Below, one piece after another: positions 1 to 11,747 of a DNA stretch of 35,180 nucleotides. The stretch is from positions 1 to 35,180 of IMG/VR virus record IMGVR_UViG_3300030397_000237. The stretch is one strand, 5' to 3'. Below the pieces are notes generated by a model. The model did not search any database, had not been told where the DNA came from, and worked only from the letters and a program-made list of their open reading frames with translations. A program made the position numbers and the translations under genes. Numbering within the stretch: the stretch's first letter is position 1; each line of letters begins with the position of its first letter. The stretch is from a virus (lineage: Duplodnaviria; Caudoviricetes).

Positions 1-123
1 TGCTTGTGCCTGTTATTGATTTAATCAACCAAGATCCAGAGATTGGCAGTTTATGTAATAGTAACGCTCACTATAGAACAAGGGATAAGATAAGCAAAGA
101 GAGGTGTATGAAGTTATTTGGCA
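1..123. repeat. Terminal direct repeat, copy 1 (circular-assembly overlap)
   Basis: 1-123 is identical to 35058-35180; a reading frame runs uninterrupted across the junction. Confidence 0.97.
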
Positions 124-212
124 GGCCCTATTTTACTTATCATCCTTTTATAACAGAGAGGTTATTTGGAACCTATTGCGGAATGAAAAACCTAAAACTA
201 AAGCACCTTTGA
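1..212 (+). CDS. C-terminal part of the junction-spanning DUF4422-like glycosyltransferase (starts at 34598)
   Basis: ORF 6..212 is in frame with the ORF from 34598 once the genome is circularised; contains PFITERLF, like the conserved (G/P)FLxERL tail of DUF4422 proteins. Confidence 0.7.
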   Translation, partial: LVPVIDLINQDPEIGSLCNSNAHYRTRDKISKERCMKLFGRPYFTYHPFITERLFGTYCGMKNLKLKHL

Positions 213-940
213 AATTTCTAATTATAAGTACGGGTTTTAACTGTAAGGATTACGTTCATAAGAATTACACTTCTGTAATAAATCAAACCTATGATAATTG
301 GGAGCATATTATAATTAATGATGCCAGTAAAGATGGAACAGCTTCTAGGTTAAACTGGATGGCTGATGATCCTAGGGTTAAAGTTATCCATAACAGCAAT
401 AATATGGGAGCTGCTTATAATAGATGGAAAGCCGTACAAGAATCTACTATAGGCCCAGAAGATGTTGTTTGTTTATTGGGTTTAGATGATCATTTGTTTC
501 CAAATGCTTTAGAGATAGTAAAACAAGAGTATGATAACGGTAAGTGGATGACGTATGGTAATTGGGTAAATCAACATGGTATAAAATGTAGAACAGATCT
601 TTATTTCCCTGAGAATGTTCATAAGAAAAGAAACTATAGAAAAGTAAAGTATAGAAGTACTGCGTTGAATACCTTTAAAAGAAAACTGTTTGATGCGATC
701 CCAGAAGAAGATTTTAAATTAAATGGCGAGTGGATAGATTCTACTACTGAAAGTGAGTTGATGTTTTCTTGTTTGGAGATGTGTGGAAAGGATCGGATAG
801 GAGTGATAGAAGAACCTATTTATTATTATAACGAATCACTATCTAACGGAACCCTAAGAAGGCTGGGGGTAGATTATAAGTATAATATATATTATAAAAT
901 AACGGACCGAGATAAAAAACCTTTATACGAGAATTTATGA
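209..940 (+). CDS. Family 2 glycosyltransferase (GT-A fold); probable start TTG at 209
   Basis: KFLIISTGFN...SVINQTYDNWEHIIINDASKDG...NMGAAYNR...LLGLDDHL matches a GT2 N-terminus; TTG 209 overlaps the upstream TGA (TTGA coupling), more plausible than a start at 104. Confidence 0.88.
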   Translation: MKFLIISTGFNCKDYVHKNYTSVINQTYDNWEHIIINDASKDGTASRLNWMADDPRVKVIHNSNNMGAAYNRWKAVQESTIGPEDVVCLLGLDDHLFPNALEIVKQEYDNGKWMTYGNWVNQHGIKCRTDLYFPENVHKKRNYRKVKYRSTALNTFKRKLFDAIPEEDFKLNGEWIDSTTESELMFSCLEMCGKDRIGVIEEPIYYYNESLSNGTLRRLGVDYKYNIYYKITDRDKKPLYENL

Positions 941-1653
941 ATGTATCAGTAGTAATGAACAGCGTTGGAGAACGTGAAGATTGGTTTCATGAAGCTGTTA
1001 GTGATGTGTTAGGGCAATATAAGGTAGATGTACACCTAATACTTTGTACTATTGAGGGAGATAACTGTTTAAAATGGATCAAAAAGTATGAAGGTGATAT
1101 AGAAACCTTAGTTATAAAAAAGAAGGATCACCCAGGGAAAGGGCCGAATGGGTCATTTTATCAGTTGAACAAAGCGGTTCAGTTAATAAAGAACGATTGG
1201 TTCATATTTGCCTCTAGTAATTGCAGGTTAGTTGGCCATAAATACCACACCGAGATAAGTAAGTGTTTAAAAGAAGGAAAGAAAGTATGCTACTCGGATA
1301 TGTTTATAACAGACGAAGATCTTAATATAAAAAGGAGAACATATTTCGGGCCTTACAGTATTAAGAAGCATTTGTCTAGCAATTTTATTCCAGATCAATC
1401 TATGGCTAGTTCGGAGCTTATCAAAAAATATTTGCCATTTAGAACGTTATGGTTTAATTGTGGGTATTGGGATATGTGGCTAAGGATTTACCGAGAAGAG
1501 GGAAATGTGTTTACTTACAACGATCAGCCTGTAAGGTGGTATAGACGGGATGATGACAGTATGAGCGTAAAAAGAAGTAAAAATCCTAAAGAGCATGAAG
1601 AGTATTTACGGCAACAACAACTCTTTTTAAAAGAACATAGGCAATGGTTGTAA
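937..1653 (+). CDS. GT2-like glycosyltransferase (divergent DxD region)
   Basis: MNVSVVM...EAVSDVLGQ...QLNKAVQLIKNDWFIFASSN...VCYSD...YWDMWLRI...YRR follows the GT2 pattern; the DxD position reads SSN. Confidence 0.75.
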   Translation: MNVSVVMNSVGEREDWFHEAVSDVLGQYKVDVHLILCTIEGDNCLKWIKKYEGDIETLVIKKKDHPGKGPNGSFYQLNKAVQLIKNDWFIFASSNCRLVGHKYHTEISKCLKEGKKVCYSDMFITDEDLNIKRRTYFGPYSIKKHLSSNFIPDQSMASSELIKKYLPFRTLWFNCGYWDMWLRIYREEGNVFTYNDQPVRWYRRDDDSMSVKRSKNPKEHEEYLRQQQLFLKEHRQWL

Positions 1654-2552
1654 CCAGTATCTGTAGTGATGATTATGCTAATTTCATGTATGATAACGCT
1701 AATGCTTTAAGGAGTGTTGGCTTAGAGGTACACGATCTAAAAATTAACCCTCACCAGTTCGGATACGAAAACCAGTCTAAAGTTACCTCCCTTAACGAGA
1801 TGAGGCACTGGGTAAAAAAAAGCGATGTACTTCAGATATTTCATTCCGATGCTTACCTGTTTCAGCTTACCCAGAACCTATGTAAGAAGATTGTAGTTCA
1901 CCACACTGGTACTCCTTATAGAATGGCATACAAACATATGAATAGGGTGTTTAATGTAAAATGTAAAAAGAGCATTCTTGCTTTGGGGGAGTTTGAGAGG
2001 CTAGGATCTATAAGGCCAGAATATGTTGTTGGATCAATAGACATTGACAAGTATAAGCCAAAATACATTCCTAAAAGCAGAAAAGTAAAGTTTGGGCATT
2101 ACCCTTCTAATCCACAAGTAAAGGGAACTGGAGTTATTAATAGAGCTATCGGAAAGGTAGGGGTTGAGTATTTGCATAGCGTGGAGAAAGTGAATTATAA
2201 GGATCAGCTAAAAAGAATGAGTAAGTGTGATGTTTATATTGAGCTGTTTGCTCCTAAGCAAGATGGTAGACCGTACGGAAGCTGGGGTATTACTGCTTTA
2301 GAAGCTGCGGCCTTGGGGAAGGTGGTTATTACCAATCACACCAGTAAAGCTTATTATGAGAAATTTTACCCTAAGAGCGAACTTGAAGTAGTTAGTACAC
2401 CTAATGAGCTAGAGGCGAAAATTCGCCAATATAACCAAATGAGTATTGGAGAGATAAGGGCAAAGCAAGAAAAAACACGAAAATGGATAGAAGATAACCA
2501 CTCTTATGTTCCTACGGGTAATAGGTTAAAAAATATATTGTATGGATTATAA
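1644..2552 (+). CDS. GT-B (GT4-like) glycosyltransferase
   Basis: HYPSNPQVKGT...CDVYIE...WGITALEAAALGKVVIT is the typical GT-B C-terminal motif. Confidence 0.82.
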   Translation: MVVTSICSDDYANFMYDNANALRSVGLEVHDLKINPHQFGYENQSKVTSLNEMRHWVKKSDVLQIFHSDAYLFQLTQNLCKKIVVHHTGTPYRMAYKHMNRVFNVKCKKSILALGEFERLGSIRPEYVVGSIDIDKYKPKYIPKSRKVKFGHYPSNPQVKGTGVINRAIGKVGVEYLHSVEKVNYKDQLKRMSKCDVYIELFAPKQDGRPYGSWGITALEAAALGKVVITNHTSKAYYEKFYPKSELEVVSTPNELEAKIRQYNQMSIGEIRAKQEKTRKWIEDNHSYVPTGNRLKNILYGL

Positions 2553-3108
2553 AGAACGGCTAACCAACTGGAACGCTACAGATTTTTATAAGTTAGAAAT
2601 GGATTTTATGATAAAAATCATAAATCCTAAAAGAGGAGAGAGGTTGTTAGATTATGGTTGTGGTACAGGTTACATGATGGGCCATATAAACCATACTTAC
2701 CCTTGTGAGGTGTACGGGTATGATGCGAATAACTATTTAGATCCTAGATGGGTAAATGGAGAGATTGAATTTAGGTTAAGAGATGAGTACTATTTTCAGT
2801 TCCACAAGGTTTATTTTATGCACTCTATAGCTCATGTAGAAAATATTCATTCTAAGCTAGAGATACTGAAAGAAGATCTTCTAGAAGAGGGAGGTGAAGT
2901 GTATGTGATGACGCCTAATAAAAGTTGGCTGGAGTATAAGAACGAAGATAAAGATTACAAATCAGATGATACAGTAATAGAGCATTTCGATGTAAATACT
3001 TTAAGTAAGCTGTTTTTGGATGTAGGTTATAAGGTAGATTATGTAGGGCAATACGGATCGATTATTAAGAATCAGTGTGAGCGTGTTTTTATAAAAGCTA
3101 TCAAATGA
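2542..3108 (+). CDS. Class I SAM-dependent methyltransferase
   Basis: LLDYGCGTG motif I, VYGYD, HSIAHV...GGEVYVMTPN. Confidence 0.88.
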   Translation: MDYKERLTNWNATDFYKLEMDFMIKIINPKRGERLLDYGCGTGYMMGHINHTYPCEVYGYDANNYLDPRWVNGEIEFRLRDEYYFQFHKVYFMHSIAHVENIHSKLEILKEDLLEEGGEVYVMTPNKSWLEYKNEDKDYKSDDTVIEHFDVNTLSKLFLDVGYKVDYVGQYGSIIKNQCERVFIKAIK

Positions 3109-8227: not shown

Positions 8228-8935
8228 ATGAGCACAGTAATAAGAGCAAGTAAATTTCCTAAAGAATTTATTAAAGATCTACAGCTAGAATTTAATAGTA
8301 CTAGTACGGTTGATATTTTAGCTGGTTCATGTCGAGATGAAGATGATACTCATGATATTGTTTCTGATTCAACTATTAATGTTGATATTACCTCAAGTGG
8401 AGCAGGAGGTTTAGATACAGGAAGTGAAGCTTCGAACACACACTATTTTGTTTGGATCATTAAAAACACCGATAGTGGAGTAATAGACGGTATTTTGTCA
8501 ACTAGTTCTTCTTCACCTACTATGCCTTCTGGCTTTAACGTAAGAAGGTTGTTAGGATCTGTAAGGAATAACGTAGGAAGTAATTTCTTTGATTTTAAAA
8601 TGTTTGGTGCAGGCAGTAATAGGTTTGTAGAGTATATGGAGAATTCAGGAACTACAATGAGGGCGTTAAGTGCAGGAACGGCAGGAACCAAAACTAATGT
8701 TGATTTAAGCTCTTTTGTGCCTAGTATTTCTGAGGAAGTTTATTTACAAGGAACCAATACAGCAACAGGGGTGTGTCAGTTAAGGCCAGATACTTATAGT
8801 ATAAACGCTGTAGCGGCTGTTAGTGGAGGTAGTTCTATATTTAGAATGTTTGCTCCTGGCCAGATCGTGGAGTACAGTGTTATAGGAGGCGGTTCTTTAA
8901 ATTTGGATTGTTTAGGATTTTATTTGAACTTATGA
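8228..8935 (+). CDS. Tail-fibre-related structural protein
   Basis: AG.CRD, GAGGLDTGSEASNTHY.V, S.S...PTMPSG...RR.LGS motifs typical of phage fibre domains. Confidence 0.6.
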   Translation: MSTVIRASKFPKEFIKDLQLEFNSTSTVDILAGSCRDEDDTHDIVSDSTINVDITSSGAGGLDTGSEASNTHYFVWIIKNTDSGVIDGILSTSSSSPTMPSGFNVRRLLGSVRNNVGSNFFDFKMFGAGSNRFVEYMENSGTTMRALSAGTAGTKTNVDLSSFVPSISEEVYLQGTNTATGVCQLRPDTYSINAVAAVSGGSSIFRMFAPGQIVEYSVIGGGSLNLDCLGFYLNL

Positions 8936-9120
8936 AAATTGTTTACAATAGTATTACAAAGGTAATTCGGTCCGCTGGATACGTAGATCTAGAATTGGAA
9001 GATGTTTATAACGATGCTACAGAAACGTGTGTAGTATGGGATGGAGTTTTAAACCCAGGTATAGAATTTACGGTATGGTATTGGGATGAAGTAAACGAAG
9101 AGCCAACAGAAGCATTATAA
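8932..9120 (+). CDS. Small hypothetical protein, possible fibre assembly factor; probable start ATG 8932
   Basis: ATGA overlap with the upstream stop; acidic, WYWD near the C-terminus. Confidence 0.5.
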   Translation: MKIVYNSITKVIRSAGYVDLELEDVYNDATETCVVWDGVLNPGIEFTVWYWDEVNEEPTEAL

Positions 9121-9452
9121 TGCAAAGAATAGTTAGAAATAGCGCAAACACACTTATATTTTATGTTCAGCCGAGCATAAGCAATCCAGAGTATTTAGTT
9201 ATTTGCACTTCTAGGAGTGATGGTACAACGGTTACTACTCACTGTTTAGATCAGAATAGCGAAGATTGTAACTGGATAGAACTAAGCATAACAGATATGG
9301 GGGGAGGGATAAAAACCTCTGTTTATAATCAGATAAACATAGAGCCTCCTGTATTTTGGGATATTAGCATTTACGAACAAGCGTCTGGCAGTTTAAATAC
9401 CGATCCTGATGCAGCTACATTATTGGTAACGGAATATTTAGAAGTTGAGTGA
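9120..9452 (+). CDS. Hypothetical structural protein
   Basis: 110 aa, translationally coupled; IYEQ.S..LNTDP motif. Confidence 0.5.
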   Translation: MQRIVRNSANTLIFYVQPSISNPEYLVICTSRSDGTTVTTHCLDQNSEDCNWIELSITDMGGGIKTSVYNQINIEPPVFWDISIYEQASGSLNTDPDAATLLVTEYLEVE

Positions 9453-9738
9453 GCTACCCCTTATTGAAATACTTGGAAGCTTTATTACTGTACTACTTAC
9501 AATTACTGTAGTACTTATAAAAACAGCTATTAACAGGTATGTGTCTGAGCATGAAAAGATGATCAATAAGATAGATGAGCTTAAAACTGAAATACACGAA
9601 CTAATCACCAAGAACAATTTACTAGAATCAAATATGGCTTCTTCTTTGGACCACATAGCAAGGATCAACGAAAAAGTAACTAAGAATACAGAAAGGTTAA
9701 TTGTAGTAGAACAACTATCTGGTATATGGCGAAAGTAG
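9445..9738 (+). CDS. Single-TM plus coiled-coil protein (holin-like)
   Basis: Hydrophobic residues ~6-25 followed by a heptad-rich helix; two genes upstream of the endolysin. Confidence 0.55.
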   Translation: MSELPLIEILGSFITVLLTITVVLIKTAINRYVSEHEKMINKIDELKTEIHELITKNNLLESNMASSLDHIARINEKVTKNTERLIVVEQLSGIWRK

Positions 9739-10037
9739 GTATTGTAGATGATAATTATGAGAACTGTGAGTTCTTAAAGATACTCTTTCCAGATAGTGTA
9801 ACGAATGATGGATCAAGTTATATTGGTAATTGTGAATATTATATTGTAGATTATTTATTGGTAGGTAAAACGGGATTAGATTACTGTAAAGAGTATGAAA
9901 TACCATTTAATAAGGTTATTATAATGACAGCGTTAAGAGATTACCAAATATCGGTAGATGTAATCAGAAAAGGATGCTTAGCTTATGTAGAAAAAGGATT
10001 TACTATAGATGAATTTAAGAAGATAATCAATGTATAA
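9726..10037 (+). CDS. Stand-alone response-regulator receiver (CheY-like) protein
   Basis: IVDD (D8,D9), YYIVD (D42), G.TGLD, VIIMTA (T68), G..AYVEK (Y87,K90), in correct REC order. Confidence 0.85.
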   Translation: MAKVGIVDDNYENCEFLKILFPDSVTNDGSSYIGNCEYYIVDYLLVGKTGLDYCKEYEIPFNKVIIMTALRDYQISVDVIRKGCLAYVEKGFTIDEFKKIINV

Positions 10038-10464
10038 GTTCGGAGAAAGAAGTTTAAATAATCTAGAAAGTTGCCACGAAGATCTTCAGTTAATAGCTAA
10101 TGAGGCTCTTAAGGTTTCTCAGGTAGATTTTGGCATTAGCGAAGGGCATAGGAGCCTTCAAAGGCAATTAGAGTTGTTTAACGCTGGTAAGAGTAAGATA
10201 GACGGGGTAACTAAAAAAGGTAAACATAATTACAATCCTTCTTTGGCGTTTGATTTTTATGCGTATGTGCCAGGTAAGAAAGAATTAGCTTTTGATGTAA
10301 CGCATTTAATGTACATAGTAGGAGTGATCACAGCGGTAGGAGAGAGATTATACCAAGAGGGCAAAATAAGCCATAAGGTGAGAAGCGGTGCGAACTGGGA
10401 TGGTGACGGAGAGTTAAAATACGATCAGAGCTTTTTCGATGCACCTCACATTCAGATAGTTTGA
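10030..10464 (+). CDS. Endolysin, M15-family (L-Ala-D-Glu-type) peptidase
   Basis: S..NL..CHEDLQ, EGHRS..RQ..L...GKSK, KHN..PSLAFD, GANWD, DAPHIQ (Zn ligands H, D, H). Confidence 0.9.
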   Translation: MYKFGERSLNNLESCHEDLQLIANEALKVSQVDFGISEGHRSLQRQLELFNAGKSKIDGVTKKGKHNYNPSLAFDFYAYVPGKKELAFDVTHLMYIVGVITAVGERLYQEGKISHKVRSGANWDGDGELKYDQSFFDAPHIQIV

Positions 10465-10727
10465 AACCAAAACCCAAAAATATGAGTTTTTTAAATTTAA
10501 TTCCCGTTTTAAGTAGTGCTGTACAGGGCTTGCAAGATGCTTTACCTGTAGTAGGAACTATAAAGCAAAACATACAAGATTTAAGTGGAGGAAAAGGAAA
10601 AGTAAATTACGTACGATTGGTAACTAATATATTGAGTTATGCGGTACAGATTTATATTATTTATTTAATCGCTAAAGGAAGCTTAGAAGCCGAAACTGGG
10701 CAAGAGCTTCTTGACGAGGTTAAGTGA
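10461..10727 (+). CDS. Small membrane protein, second holin candidate
   Basis: Follows the endolysin by TTGA overlap; C-terminal hydrophobic segment LVTNILSYAVQIYIIYLIA. Confidence 0.5.
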   Translation: MKPKPKNMSFLNLIPVLSSAVQGLQDALPVVGTIKQNIQDLSGGKGKVNYVRLVTNILSYAVQIYIIYLIAKGSLEAETGQELLDEVK

Positions 10728-11079
10728 AGGAATCCAAGAGATCCTTTTCGGCCTGGATCAACTCTTCCATTCTACGAGAGTAATATTCGTTAAAAGATAC
10801 TTCTTGATTAGTCTGTTCATAGCGCCTGTAGAGAACGTTCCGCAGGCGTTTTGATTTAGATAACTTTTTATCTTCTATCTCTACACTATCTAGCTCTTCT
10901 ACCTCTCTAGCGTATATATCTTGCCCTGCTCTAAAGTAAAGCACTCCGAAGCTATCCATTAGCTTGTCTATGTTTAGTATTTGCTCAGAAGGTATTTCTT
11001 GTGTCACAAAAGAGATCGAAACGCTTTTATCTTTTCGTCTACGGTAAGAAGTAAGGTATGCTAAGTTTAGAATTTTCAC
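10720..11079 (-). CDS. Hypothetical phage protein
   Basis: 119-aa ORF converging on the lysis genes; SKRLRNVLY...FNEYY...ME motif. Confidence 0.6.
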   Translation of the reverse strand: MKILNLAYLTSYRRRKDKSVSISFVTQEIPSEQILNIDKLMDSFGVLYFRAGQDIYAREVEELDSVEIEDKKLSKSKRLRNVLYRRYEQTNQEVSFNEYYSRRMEELIQAEKDLLDSFT

Positions 11080-11094
11080 GAATTTTCACGAATT

Positions 11095-11124
11095 AAAAAG
11101 AGGGAATCCACCACAGTTCCCTCT
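11095..11124 (-). terminator. Intrinsic terminator-like hairpin on the minus strand
   Basis: AGAGGGAA/TTCCCTCT 8-bp stem preceded by an A-run on + (U-tract on -). Confidence 0.55.
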
Positions 11125-11186
11125 AAACTTCTAAAGTTTTATCCCTTAAAGGGTTCTATTTAGAATTGATCAATTGAATATAAAAT

Positions 11187-11216
11187 AAAAAAGAGAGAAC
11201 AACAATGGCCCTCTCT
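11187..11216 (-). terminator. Second, weaker minus-strand terminator-like hairpin
   Basis: AGAGAG/CTCTCT stem preceded by A6 on +. Confidence 0.35.
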
Positions 11217-11345
11217 CTGCTTATGGATAATTGCTCTCGCAATCATAGGAACCTAAAGATACAAAAAATAAACTTGTATAGGTGTGTAAAAAAGTGTAGT
11301 TTTGGGTAAACTACAAAATACCTGTTAATCACAAACAAATTAATT

Positions 11346-11747
11346 ATGAAAAAACTGAGTTTAATTTTACTAGTAGGAATTATGTTATCACTTTCATCTT
11401 GTTGGGATTTTAGAAGAGAGCAACACATGAAAGATGCGGAAGCCAATGGTAAGGCAACATTGCTTGAGGCTGAAAGCTCGAAAAAAGCTCTCATTGAACA
11501 GGCAAAAGCTGAAAATGAGGCTGCAACACTTCAAGCTGAGGCGAGGGTGAAAATAGCTAAAGCAGAAGCAGAAGCAGAGATTGAAAGAGCAAAGGGTGTA
11601 GCAGAAGCAAATAGAATCATTGGTGAATCAATGAAAGGAAATAGAGAGTACTTGGAGTACTTAAAAATTAATGCCATTAGAACTGGAAAGGGAGATAAAA
11701 TCTATATTCCAACAGAGGCAACATTACCAATAACAGAGGCTAAATGA
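11346..11747 (+). CDS. Lipoprotein with an SPFH/band-7-like C-terminal coiled coil
   Basis: Signal peptide II MKKLSLILLVGIMLSLSS-C; AEA-rich coil, ERAKGVAEANRII..S....YL.YL, IYIPTE. Confidence 0.7.
   Translation: MKKLSLILLVGIMLSLSSCWDFRREQHMKDAEANGKATLLEAESSKKALIEQAKAENEAATLQAEARVKIAKAEAEAEIERAKGVAEANRIIGESMKGNREYLEYLKINAIRTGKGDKIYIPTEATLPITEAK

What the first reader, a model, noticed from the sequence alone, without database searches (positions are those of the whole stretch)
9445..10727. Phosphorylatable CheY-like receiver protein embedded in the lysis cassette
Seen: a 103-aa stand-alone receiver domain (D8/D9, phosphoacceptor D42, T68, Y87, K90; beta2-alpha2 region shortened, KG in place of KP). 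It overlaps the upstream TM/coiled-coil gene by 13 nt and the M15 endolysin by 8 nt, and a second membrane protein follows. There is no output domain and no kinase in the genome. Known: single-domain receivers (CheY, DivK, Spo0F) act through protein contacts or as phosphate sinks, and are not a standard lysis-cassette component. Inference: it is expressed late with the lysis genes and may link lysis timing to a host kinase or acetyl-phosphate (a host-state-sensing antiholin), or drain a host two-component pathway such as envelope stress.
Basis: partly seen in the sequence, partly recalled or inferred. Interest (0 to 1): 0.85.

Follow-up and report, generated by a model that had tools for sequence, protein, structure and literature searches.

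The report
Phospho-receiver insert in phage lysis cassette
An uncultured aquatic phage carries a bacterial-type phosphorylation switch protein wedged between a membrane-anchored helical protein and its cell-wall-cutting enzyme, a pairing that recurs in unrelated phages and is sometimes fused into one gene, so the switch likely lets host phospho-signals tune when the infected cell bursts, though this is untested.

Summary
Observation confirmed. 9726-10037 encodes a 103-aa receiver with all five active-site residues (D8, D9, D42, T68, K90). Helix alpha2 is missing, and the complete 35-kb genome has no recognisable kinase. It lies between a one-helix membrane/coiled-coil gene (TM-CC) and a soluble M15C endolysin.

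It has no close relatives, and 0 of 50 loci with a related endolysin carry a receiver, so it is an optional insert.

The arrangement recurs. 13 of 37 stand-alone viral receivers abut a TM-CC gene, against 0 of 40 longer regulators and 6 of 111 control ORFs. Four loci fuse the two. Cultured Alteromonas phages PB15 and R9Y show the same order, and their papers and records treat such genes as auxiliary or unannotated. The tight partner is TM-CC; named lysis genes are nearby in 5 of 16 such loci versus 0 of 21 others.

Best reading (0.45): a host-phosphorylated receiver acts on a membrane lysis-accessory protein to tune lysis. Binding, phosphorylation and phenotype are untested. This scan noted the arrangement before on other DNA; my literature searches found no description of it.

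The parts
9445..9738 (+). 97-aa protein with one N-terminal membrane helix (about residues 8-25) and a predicted cytoplasmic coiled coil (TM-CC); candidate holin-like or lysis-accessory protein and likely partner of the receiver
   Evidence: Hydropathy 2.44 at residue 7; no K/R before the helix and K/R after it, so predicted N-out/C-in; Atlas look-alikes are unnamed phage clusters at 0.94, with a putative holin at 0.92 and releasin DUF2730 at 0.91 as leads only; weak Rz-like PHROG 739 hit E 0.0013
9726..10037 (+). 103-aa stand-alone receiver domain; D8/D9, D42 (codon 9849-9851), T68, A69, Y87, K90, F92; alpha2 missing
10030..10464 (+). 144-aa M15C L-Ala-D-Glu endopeptidase endolysin, no N-terminal signal or anchor
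   Evidence: PHROG 465 E 3e-30; PDB 8q2g, 23ri, 2mxz; 47.7% to the Tenacibaculum phage Gundel_1 endolysin; hydropathy
10482..10727 (+). 81-aa small membrane protein, holin candidate (the ORF can be extended to TTG 10461)
   Evidence: One hydrophobic stretch at about residues 46-64; look-alike proteins (20-27% identity) directly follow related endolysins in L274, L276 and L280; no family hit

Best explanation
The receiver and the upstream one-helix membrane/coiled-coil protein likely form a two-part switch: a host kinase or acetyl-phosphate would phosphorylate D42, and the receiver is predicted to bind the partner's cytoplasmic coil and shift the timing of lysis. Shown: the fold, the five active-site residues, translational overlap with both neighbours, absence of a phage kinase, and recurrence and occasional fusion of receiver and TM-CC genes in late and lysis regions of unrelated phages. 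Inferred: late co-expression, phosphorylation by a host donor, physical contact with TM-CC, TM-CC acting as holin or holin accessory, and an effect on lysis timing. The direction (delay or advance) cannot be read from sequence; I favour delay of holin triggering in one phospho-state.
For: (1) Active site intact: DD, D, T, K plus T+1 Ala, K-3 Tyr and D+8 Gly, despite only 23-30% identity to bacterial receivers. The parts lost or changed (alpha2, D+4 Pro) lie in regions that PMC12632262 says have no assigned critical role (passages). (2) Rule-based census of 160 IMG/VR loci: TM-CC neighbour for 13 of 37 stand-alone receivers, 0 of 40 longer regulators and 6 of 111 control ORFs, Fisher p 2e-5; 6 of 17 in the motif set not used to devise the rule, p 0.0013. 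(3) Fusions in both orders: L025 TM-CC-REC, L205 TM-REC, L054 REC-TM-CC before a lysozyme, L208 REC-CC-TM before holin, lysozyme and spanin. (4) PHROG lysis genes within about 2 kb: 5 of 16 receiver/TM-CC loci versus 0 of 21 other stand-alone-receiver loci, p 0.010. (5) Cultured phages: PB15 has XhlA-like CC-TM > REC > M15 peptidase > 3TM holin; R9Y has TM-CC > REC > GH108 lysozyme; R8W and H4/4 have holin > TM-CC > REC; V22 has a weakly hydrophobic CC > REC > Rz-like spanin. (6) Purifying selection on those receivers, dN/dS 0.16 and 0.10, against 0.10 for the R9Y lysozyme. (7) Single-helix membrane proteins with a cytoplasmic domain are proven lysis factors: N4 gp63 (PMC12642591), Mu gp25 (PMC9239132), LysF1b (PMC13056207).
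Against: No orthologue of this receiver was found, so selection on this gene itself is untested; it sits on a long branch and scores below the Pfam cut-off. 0 of 50 loci with a related endolysin carry a receiver, although several keep TM-CC > endolysin > small membrane protein, so lysis works without it. 11 of 16 receiver/TM-CC loci have no named lysis gene within 2 kb. In phage V19 the pair stands as a separate two-gene unit and the receiver lacks the phospho-Asp. TM-CC partners are not demonstrably homologous to each other, and the TM-CC rule is a crude heuristic devised after seeing examples.
Confidence: 0.45

Rival explanations
1. Membrane-tethered phosphate sink: TM-CC holds the receiver near a host sensor kinase, and it drains an envelope-stress or motility pathway late in infection. 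It sits in the lysis operon for expression timing and does not touch the holin.
For: No output domain and no phage kinase. By established knowledge the kinase-docking face is alpha1 plus the beta5-alpha5 loop, which the model retains. The link to TM-CC (13 of 37) is tighter than to named lysis genes (5 of 16). Receivers of the module are scattered over the tree, as if taken repeatedly from hosts (15 label changes, weakly resolved).
Against: A sink needs neither a fixed place beside lysis genes nor a coiled-coil partner. Here TM-CC is the ordinary pre-endolysin gene that relatives keep without a receiver. The V19 receiver has no Asp to accept phosphate.
Confidence: 0.22
2. Phosphorylation-independent accessory: the receiver fold serves only as a binding cap or chaperone for the TM-CC/holin coil, and the active-site residues are a relic of recent capture.
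For: The V19 receiver lacks the Asp yet keeps its partner. The window protein has lost alpha2 and has Gly at K+1.
Against: All five catalytic residues plus T+1 Ala and K-3 Tyr survive in a protein that is otherwise under 30% identical to any receiver examined. 4 of 5 cultured Alteromonas lineages, found by tblastn without an Asp filter, keep the Asp.
Confidence: 0.13
3. Passenger or decaying gene: a captured host receiver that landed in a permissive slot of the late operon and has no function here.
For: Singleton, lowest GC of the 17 genes measured (28.5%, genome 35.2%), long branch, and absent from 50 loci with related endolysins.
Against: Open frame with tight overlaps on both sides, selective retention of the active site, and the same order in unrelated phages whose receivers are under purifying selection.
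Confidence: 0.12
4. The pair acts outside lysis, for example in superinfection exclusion or host-behaviour control from an internal promoter.
For: The V19 pair is transcribed against its neighbours. Several pairs follow tail genes with no named lysin nearby (L025, L225).
Against: No promoter signal above chance in 8800-11400 (10 found, 9.4 expected; sigma-70 consensus only). The overlaps suggest one operon with the endolysin.
Confidence: 0.08

Closest known systems
Single-domain response regulators (CheY, DivK, Spo0F)
   Same: Receiver fold, five catalytic residues, no output domain
   Different: Lacks alpha2; phage-encoded with no cognate kinase; coupled to a membrane/coiled-coil gene and an endolysin
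'CheY-like' / 'PhoB' genes of cultured Alteromonas phages V22, R8W, H4/4, R9Y, PB15, V19 (PMC7289586 and PMC8228385, passages read)
   Same: Stand-alone receiver directly behind a one-helix membrane/coiled-coil gene, in or beside lysis genes; PB15 has the same four-gene order with an M15 peptidase
   Different: The two papers list them as auxiliary metabolic genes (signalling, phosphate regulation) without linking them to lysis. They are 15-24% identical to the window protein, and most carry a short helical tail that the window protein lacks.
Phage N4 gp63 pinholin / gp62 regulator (PMC12642591; abstract, passages and one results section read)
   Same: Single-helix holin with a cytoplasmic helical domain proposed to receive a lysis-delaying signal
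   Different: The 'Receiver domain' there is only a name for a stretch of gp63, not a two-component receiver. gp63 is C-terminally anchored and works with a SAR endolysin; the window endolysin is soluble.
Mu releasin gp25 (DUF2730; PMC9239132), LysF1b (PMC13056207), Lcc6 (10.1101/2024.01.23.576932), PBSX XhlA (PMC5589764)
   Same: Small membrane accessory proteins needed for efficient lysis; gp25 and LysF1b have one N-terminal helix with C-in topology like 9445-9738
   Different: No family hit for 9445-9738. Releasin acts on SAR endolysins, absent here. None was described with a receiver partner in the parts read.
T4 lysis inhibition, holin T and antiholin RI (as summarised in PMC12642591 passages, otherwise recalled)
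   Same: Signal-dependent control of a single-helix holin
   Different: T4's signal and antiholin act in the periplasm and sense superinfection; here the candidate regulator is cytoplasmic and would read Asp phosphorylation

Membership tests
Canonical single-domain receiver | (beta-alpha)5 receiver fold | tested here: met
   TM 0.85-0.87 and about 0.8 to PDB receivers; alpha2 absent in the model
Canonical single-domain receiver | Five active-site residues DD, D, T/S, K (definition from PMC12632262 passages) | tested here: met
   D8, D9, D42, T68, K90
Canonical single-domain receiver | Pfam PF00072 gathering score | tested here: not met
   22.9 bits against 30.2
Canonical single-domain receiver | No output domain | tested here: met
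   103 aa, all covered by the fold; no close longer relative among representatives of all lengths
Canonical single-domain receiver | Is phosphorylated on the Asp | not testable with these tools
   Needs a Phos-tag or radiolabel assay
Phage-encoded two-component system | Cognate histidine kinase or Hpt in the genome | tested here: not met
   No such Pfam hit in 58 ORFs; genome closed
Pseudo-receiver | Lacks at least one of the five residues | tested here: not met
   All five present
cRec (cyclic-phosphate processing receiver, PMC7824862 passages) | Linked to NAD+/cyclic-nucleotide processing genes | tested here: not met
   Neighbours are lysis genes; the cRec model matches at TM 0.55 against about 0.8 for canonical receivers
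Antiholin | Binds a holin and delays lysis | not testable with these tools
   Needs lysis curves and a binding assay
Releasin DUF2730 (for 9445-9738) | N-terminal helix, N-out/C-in | tested here: met
   Predicted from hydropathy and charge
Releasin DUF2730 (for 9445-9738) | PF10805 match | tested here: not met
   Not among 15 Pfam hits at E up to 1; Atlas look-alike 0.91 only
Releasin DUF2730 (for 9445-9738) | Acts on a SAR endolysin (Mu prototype) | tested here: not met
   Endolysin has no N-terminal hydrophobic anchor
i-spanin (for 9445-9738) | C-terminal coil in the periplasm, with an o-spanin lipoprotein gene | tested here: not met
   Charges predict C-in; no lipobox ORF of 25 aa or more on + in 9300-10900; PHROG 739 hit only E 0.0013
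M15C L-Ala-D-Glu endolysin (for 10030-10464) | Sequence match to M15C peptidases | tested here: met

The most novel reading that the evidence does not exclude
Phages of several host phyla have repeatedly captured host receiver domains and wired them, as separate genes or fusions, to a one-helix holin-like protein, creating phosphorylation-gated lysis: the phage taps the host's own two-component or acetyl-phosphate signal to decide when to burst the cell. This would be a cytoplasmic, host-state-driven form of lysis control unlike T4 or N4 lysis inhibition, and the 'PhoB/CheY auxiliary genes' of cultured Alteromonas phages would be its testable members.
Probability: 0.38. Interest if true: 0.88.

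Novelty: new variant of a known kind. Interest (0 to 1): 0.68.

Why it matters
Lysis time sets burst size, and the few known regulators of it sense superinfection. A receiver coupled to a holin-like protein would give phages a direct read-out of host physiology at the lysis step. The same module sits in culturable Alteromonas phages (R9Y1-3, PB15, R8W, H4/4, V22), so the question can be tested with one deletion and two point mutants. It would also mean that genes counted as 'PhoB-like auxiliary metabolic genes' in marine phages are misread.

Tried and rejected
Complex prediction of the receiver with two copies of TM-CC residues 26-97 plus Mg: no answer, score 0.00 against a mark of 0.32; not counted for or against binding.

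Orthologue searches found nothing close: only itself among 3 candidates; no IMG/VR locus; one chance hit in cultured phages; 61 representative hits, which apart from itself were multi-domain bacterial regulators or repeat proteins matching by chance. The portal protein found no IMG/VR relative.

A motif tailored to the window receiver gave 8 loci, of which 1 was a receiver (L025).

Four other receiver hits in phage records (Bhz63, vB_E427, Komp_PAO1_1, MW462191) showed no TM-CC or lysis context in their annotation.

Programmed frameshift fusing TM-CC to the receiver as a general mechanism: rejected, since 14 junctions are in mixed frames (10 in -1, 4 in +1) with no shared slippery site.

i-spanin reading of 9445-9738: rejected. 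cRec and pseudo-receiver: rejected.

Promoter and terminator scan at chance level. No RNA holder listed for the stretch. The receiver tree was the quick version with 49 of 81 inner branches open; it does not establish the number of origins.

Full report
Setting. The window is a closed 35-kb phage genome (124-nt terminal repeat, 35% GC) from aquatic metagenome runs. Its portal is closest to Nonlabens phages P12024S/L (23.5%, E 9e-24) and its endolysin to Tenacibaculum phage Gundel_1 (47.7%), so a flavobacterial host is likely (inference). Portal, terminase, a DnaB-type replication module and NinG are recognisable; no integrase, histidine kinase or Hpt family was hit.

Four + strand genes follow the tail-like genes: 9445-9738, 9726-10037, 10030-10464 and 10482-10727, with 13-nt and 8-nt overlaps around the second. 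The 103-aa protein scores weakly against PF00072 (E 1e-4, below cut-off). The Atlas model matches receivers at TM 0.85-0.87, and an AlphaFold2 model (pLDDT 90, built on an alignment of canonical receivers) matches VicR, ArlR and CheY at about 0.8. D9, D42, T68, Y87 and K90 are invariant against six bacterial proteins. By the definitions in PMC12632262 (passages) it is a true receiver, not a pseudo-receiver: it keeps DD, D, T, K, a small T+1 (Ala), K-3 Tyr and D+8 Gly. It has lost alpha2 and the D+4 Pro, in regions that paper says have no assigned critical role; K+1 is Gly. Keeping the whole active site at under 30% overall identity argues against decay (inference). The endolysin is a soluble M15C peptidase, so by established knowledge it needs a hole-forming holin. 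The two membrane proteins are the candidates, and which one is the holin is not determined.

The gene is an optional insert. No orthologue was found. None of 50 loci with a related endolysin (12, 38; not deduplicated, many short) holds a receiver, using a profile that finds the window gene at E 1e-6. Several of them keep the rest of the cassette: L274 reads TM-CC > endolysin > 79-aa membrane protein resembling 10482-10727.

The arrangement recurs in cultured phages. Earlier scan notes pointed to Alteromonas phages, which I checked. PB15 has an XhlA-like coil-helix protein, a receiver, an M15 peptidase and a 3TM holin, the window's order. R9Y1 and R9Y3 have TM-CC, receiver, GH108 lysozyme and a small protein. 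R8W and H4/4 have holin, TM-CC, receiver. V22 has a weakly hydrophobic coil protein, receiver and Rz-like spanin. V19 has TM-CC and receiver as a separate two-gene unit, and its receiver lacks the Asp. dN/dS of the receiver is 0.16 (R8W/H4) and 0.10 (R9Y3/R9Y1), against 0.10 for the R9Y lysozyme. Four other receiver hits that I opened in phage records lacked this context.

Census in IMG/VR. Two DNA motifs for the phospho-Asp loop each returned 120 loci (scans truncated), of which 80 each had full flanks. After dropping genes within 400 nt of a locus end and near-duplicates, 37 stand-alone and 40 longer receiver proteins remained. A directly adjacent same-strand gene of 70-230 aa with one terminal membrane helix and a heptad-like soluble part was found for 13 of 37, 0 of 40, and 6 of 111 soluble control ORFs (p 2e-5). 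The rule was devised after viewing the first set; in the second set it gave 6 of 17 (p 0.0013 against the control). Four loci fuse the parts, in both orders (L025, L205, L054, L208); L054 and L208 lie directly before lysozyme or holin-lysozyme-spanin genes. PHROG lysis-category genes, not counting the partner itself, lay within about 2 kb on the same strand in 5 of 16 receiver/TM-CC or fusion loci and 0 of 21 other stand-alone loci (p 0.010). The motifs require the Asp, so the census says nothing on Asp retention. Partners are not demonstrably homologous. Module receivers are scattered on a poorly resolved tree, with one 7-member group that includes the Alteromonas phages, consistent with repeated capture but not proof of it.

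Mechanism. The fusions place the receiver on the same side of the membrane as the coil, and charges put the window protein's coil in the cytoplasm. One-helix membrane proteins with cytoplasmic domains are proven lysis factors: N4 gp63 is a pinholin whose cytoplasmic region carries rapid-lysis mutations (PMC12642591; abstract, passages, section 8); Mu gp25 releases SAR endolysins (PMC9239132; abstract and first part of the Discussion); LysF1b and Lcc6 are needed for efficient lysis (abstracts); XhlA is described as acting with XhlB (PMC5589764 passages). My best reading (0.45) is that a host donor phosphorylates D42 and the receiver, through the TM-CC coil, shifts holin triggering. Every step after the gene anatomy is inferred. 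Rivals are a tethered phosphate sink (0.22), a phosphorylation-independent cap (0.13), a passenger (0.12) and a non-lysis role (0.08).

Novelty. The genes are in print as 'CheY-like' or 'PhoB' auxiliary genes (PMC7289586, PMC8228385 passages); the passages seen from the R9Y paper do not mention the gene (PMC9430817). Searches for a receiver linked to lysis genes returned no description of the module. The library lacks most subscription papers, and I opened no supplements, whose annotation tables may mention it. This scan has noted the same kind of arrangement on other DNA; those notes are leads, and the counts above are my own. I class it as a new variant of a known kind (accessory control of lysis, with a two-component input), interest 0.68.

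Noticed in passing
window 9730-9738: TM-CC ends in CGA AAG TAG; a one-base backward slip at A-AAG would run straight into the receiver frame and give a TM-CC-receiver fusion like L025. CGA AAG as a frameshift site is recalled, not from a call; the site is not shared by other pairs, so probably chance.
   Followed up: partly
window about 10400: Contig depth falls roughly 5- to 10-fold downstream of about 10400 in all three runs; may be amplification bias or a more abundant variant sharing only the upstream part.
   Followed up: no
window 104-3108: Cluster with a GT2 glycosyltransferase, a second glycosyltransferase-like gene and a methyltransferase just upstream of the portal; possibly virion or surface glycan modification.
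   Followed up: no
window 11346-11747: Lipoprotein-like coiled-coil protein (PHROG 11227 and 200; weak flotillin/HflC hits) downstream of the cassette; no spanin pair was recognised in this genome.
   Followed up: no
L272:1972-2989: Three tandem one-helix membrane/coiled-coil genes directly before an endolysin 69% identical to the window's.
   Followed up: no
L082:2215-2850: Receiver followed by a CHAT-domain protein with a C-terminal coil and membrane helix, behind a small membrane protein; a variant of the module with a caspase-like domain.
   Followed up: no
L020:2727-3450 (phage V19): TM-CC plus Asp-less receiver stand as a two-gene unit on the opposite strand, converging on a membrane protein and a DUF5675 gene.
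   Followed up: partly
L079:2284-2742 and L181:306-860: PHROG 3108 (unknown function) occupies the endolysin slot beside the receiver in two loci; a candidate unannotated lysin family.
   Followed up: no
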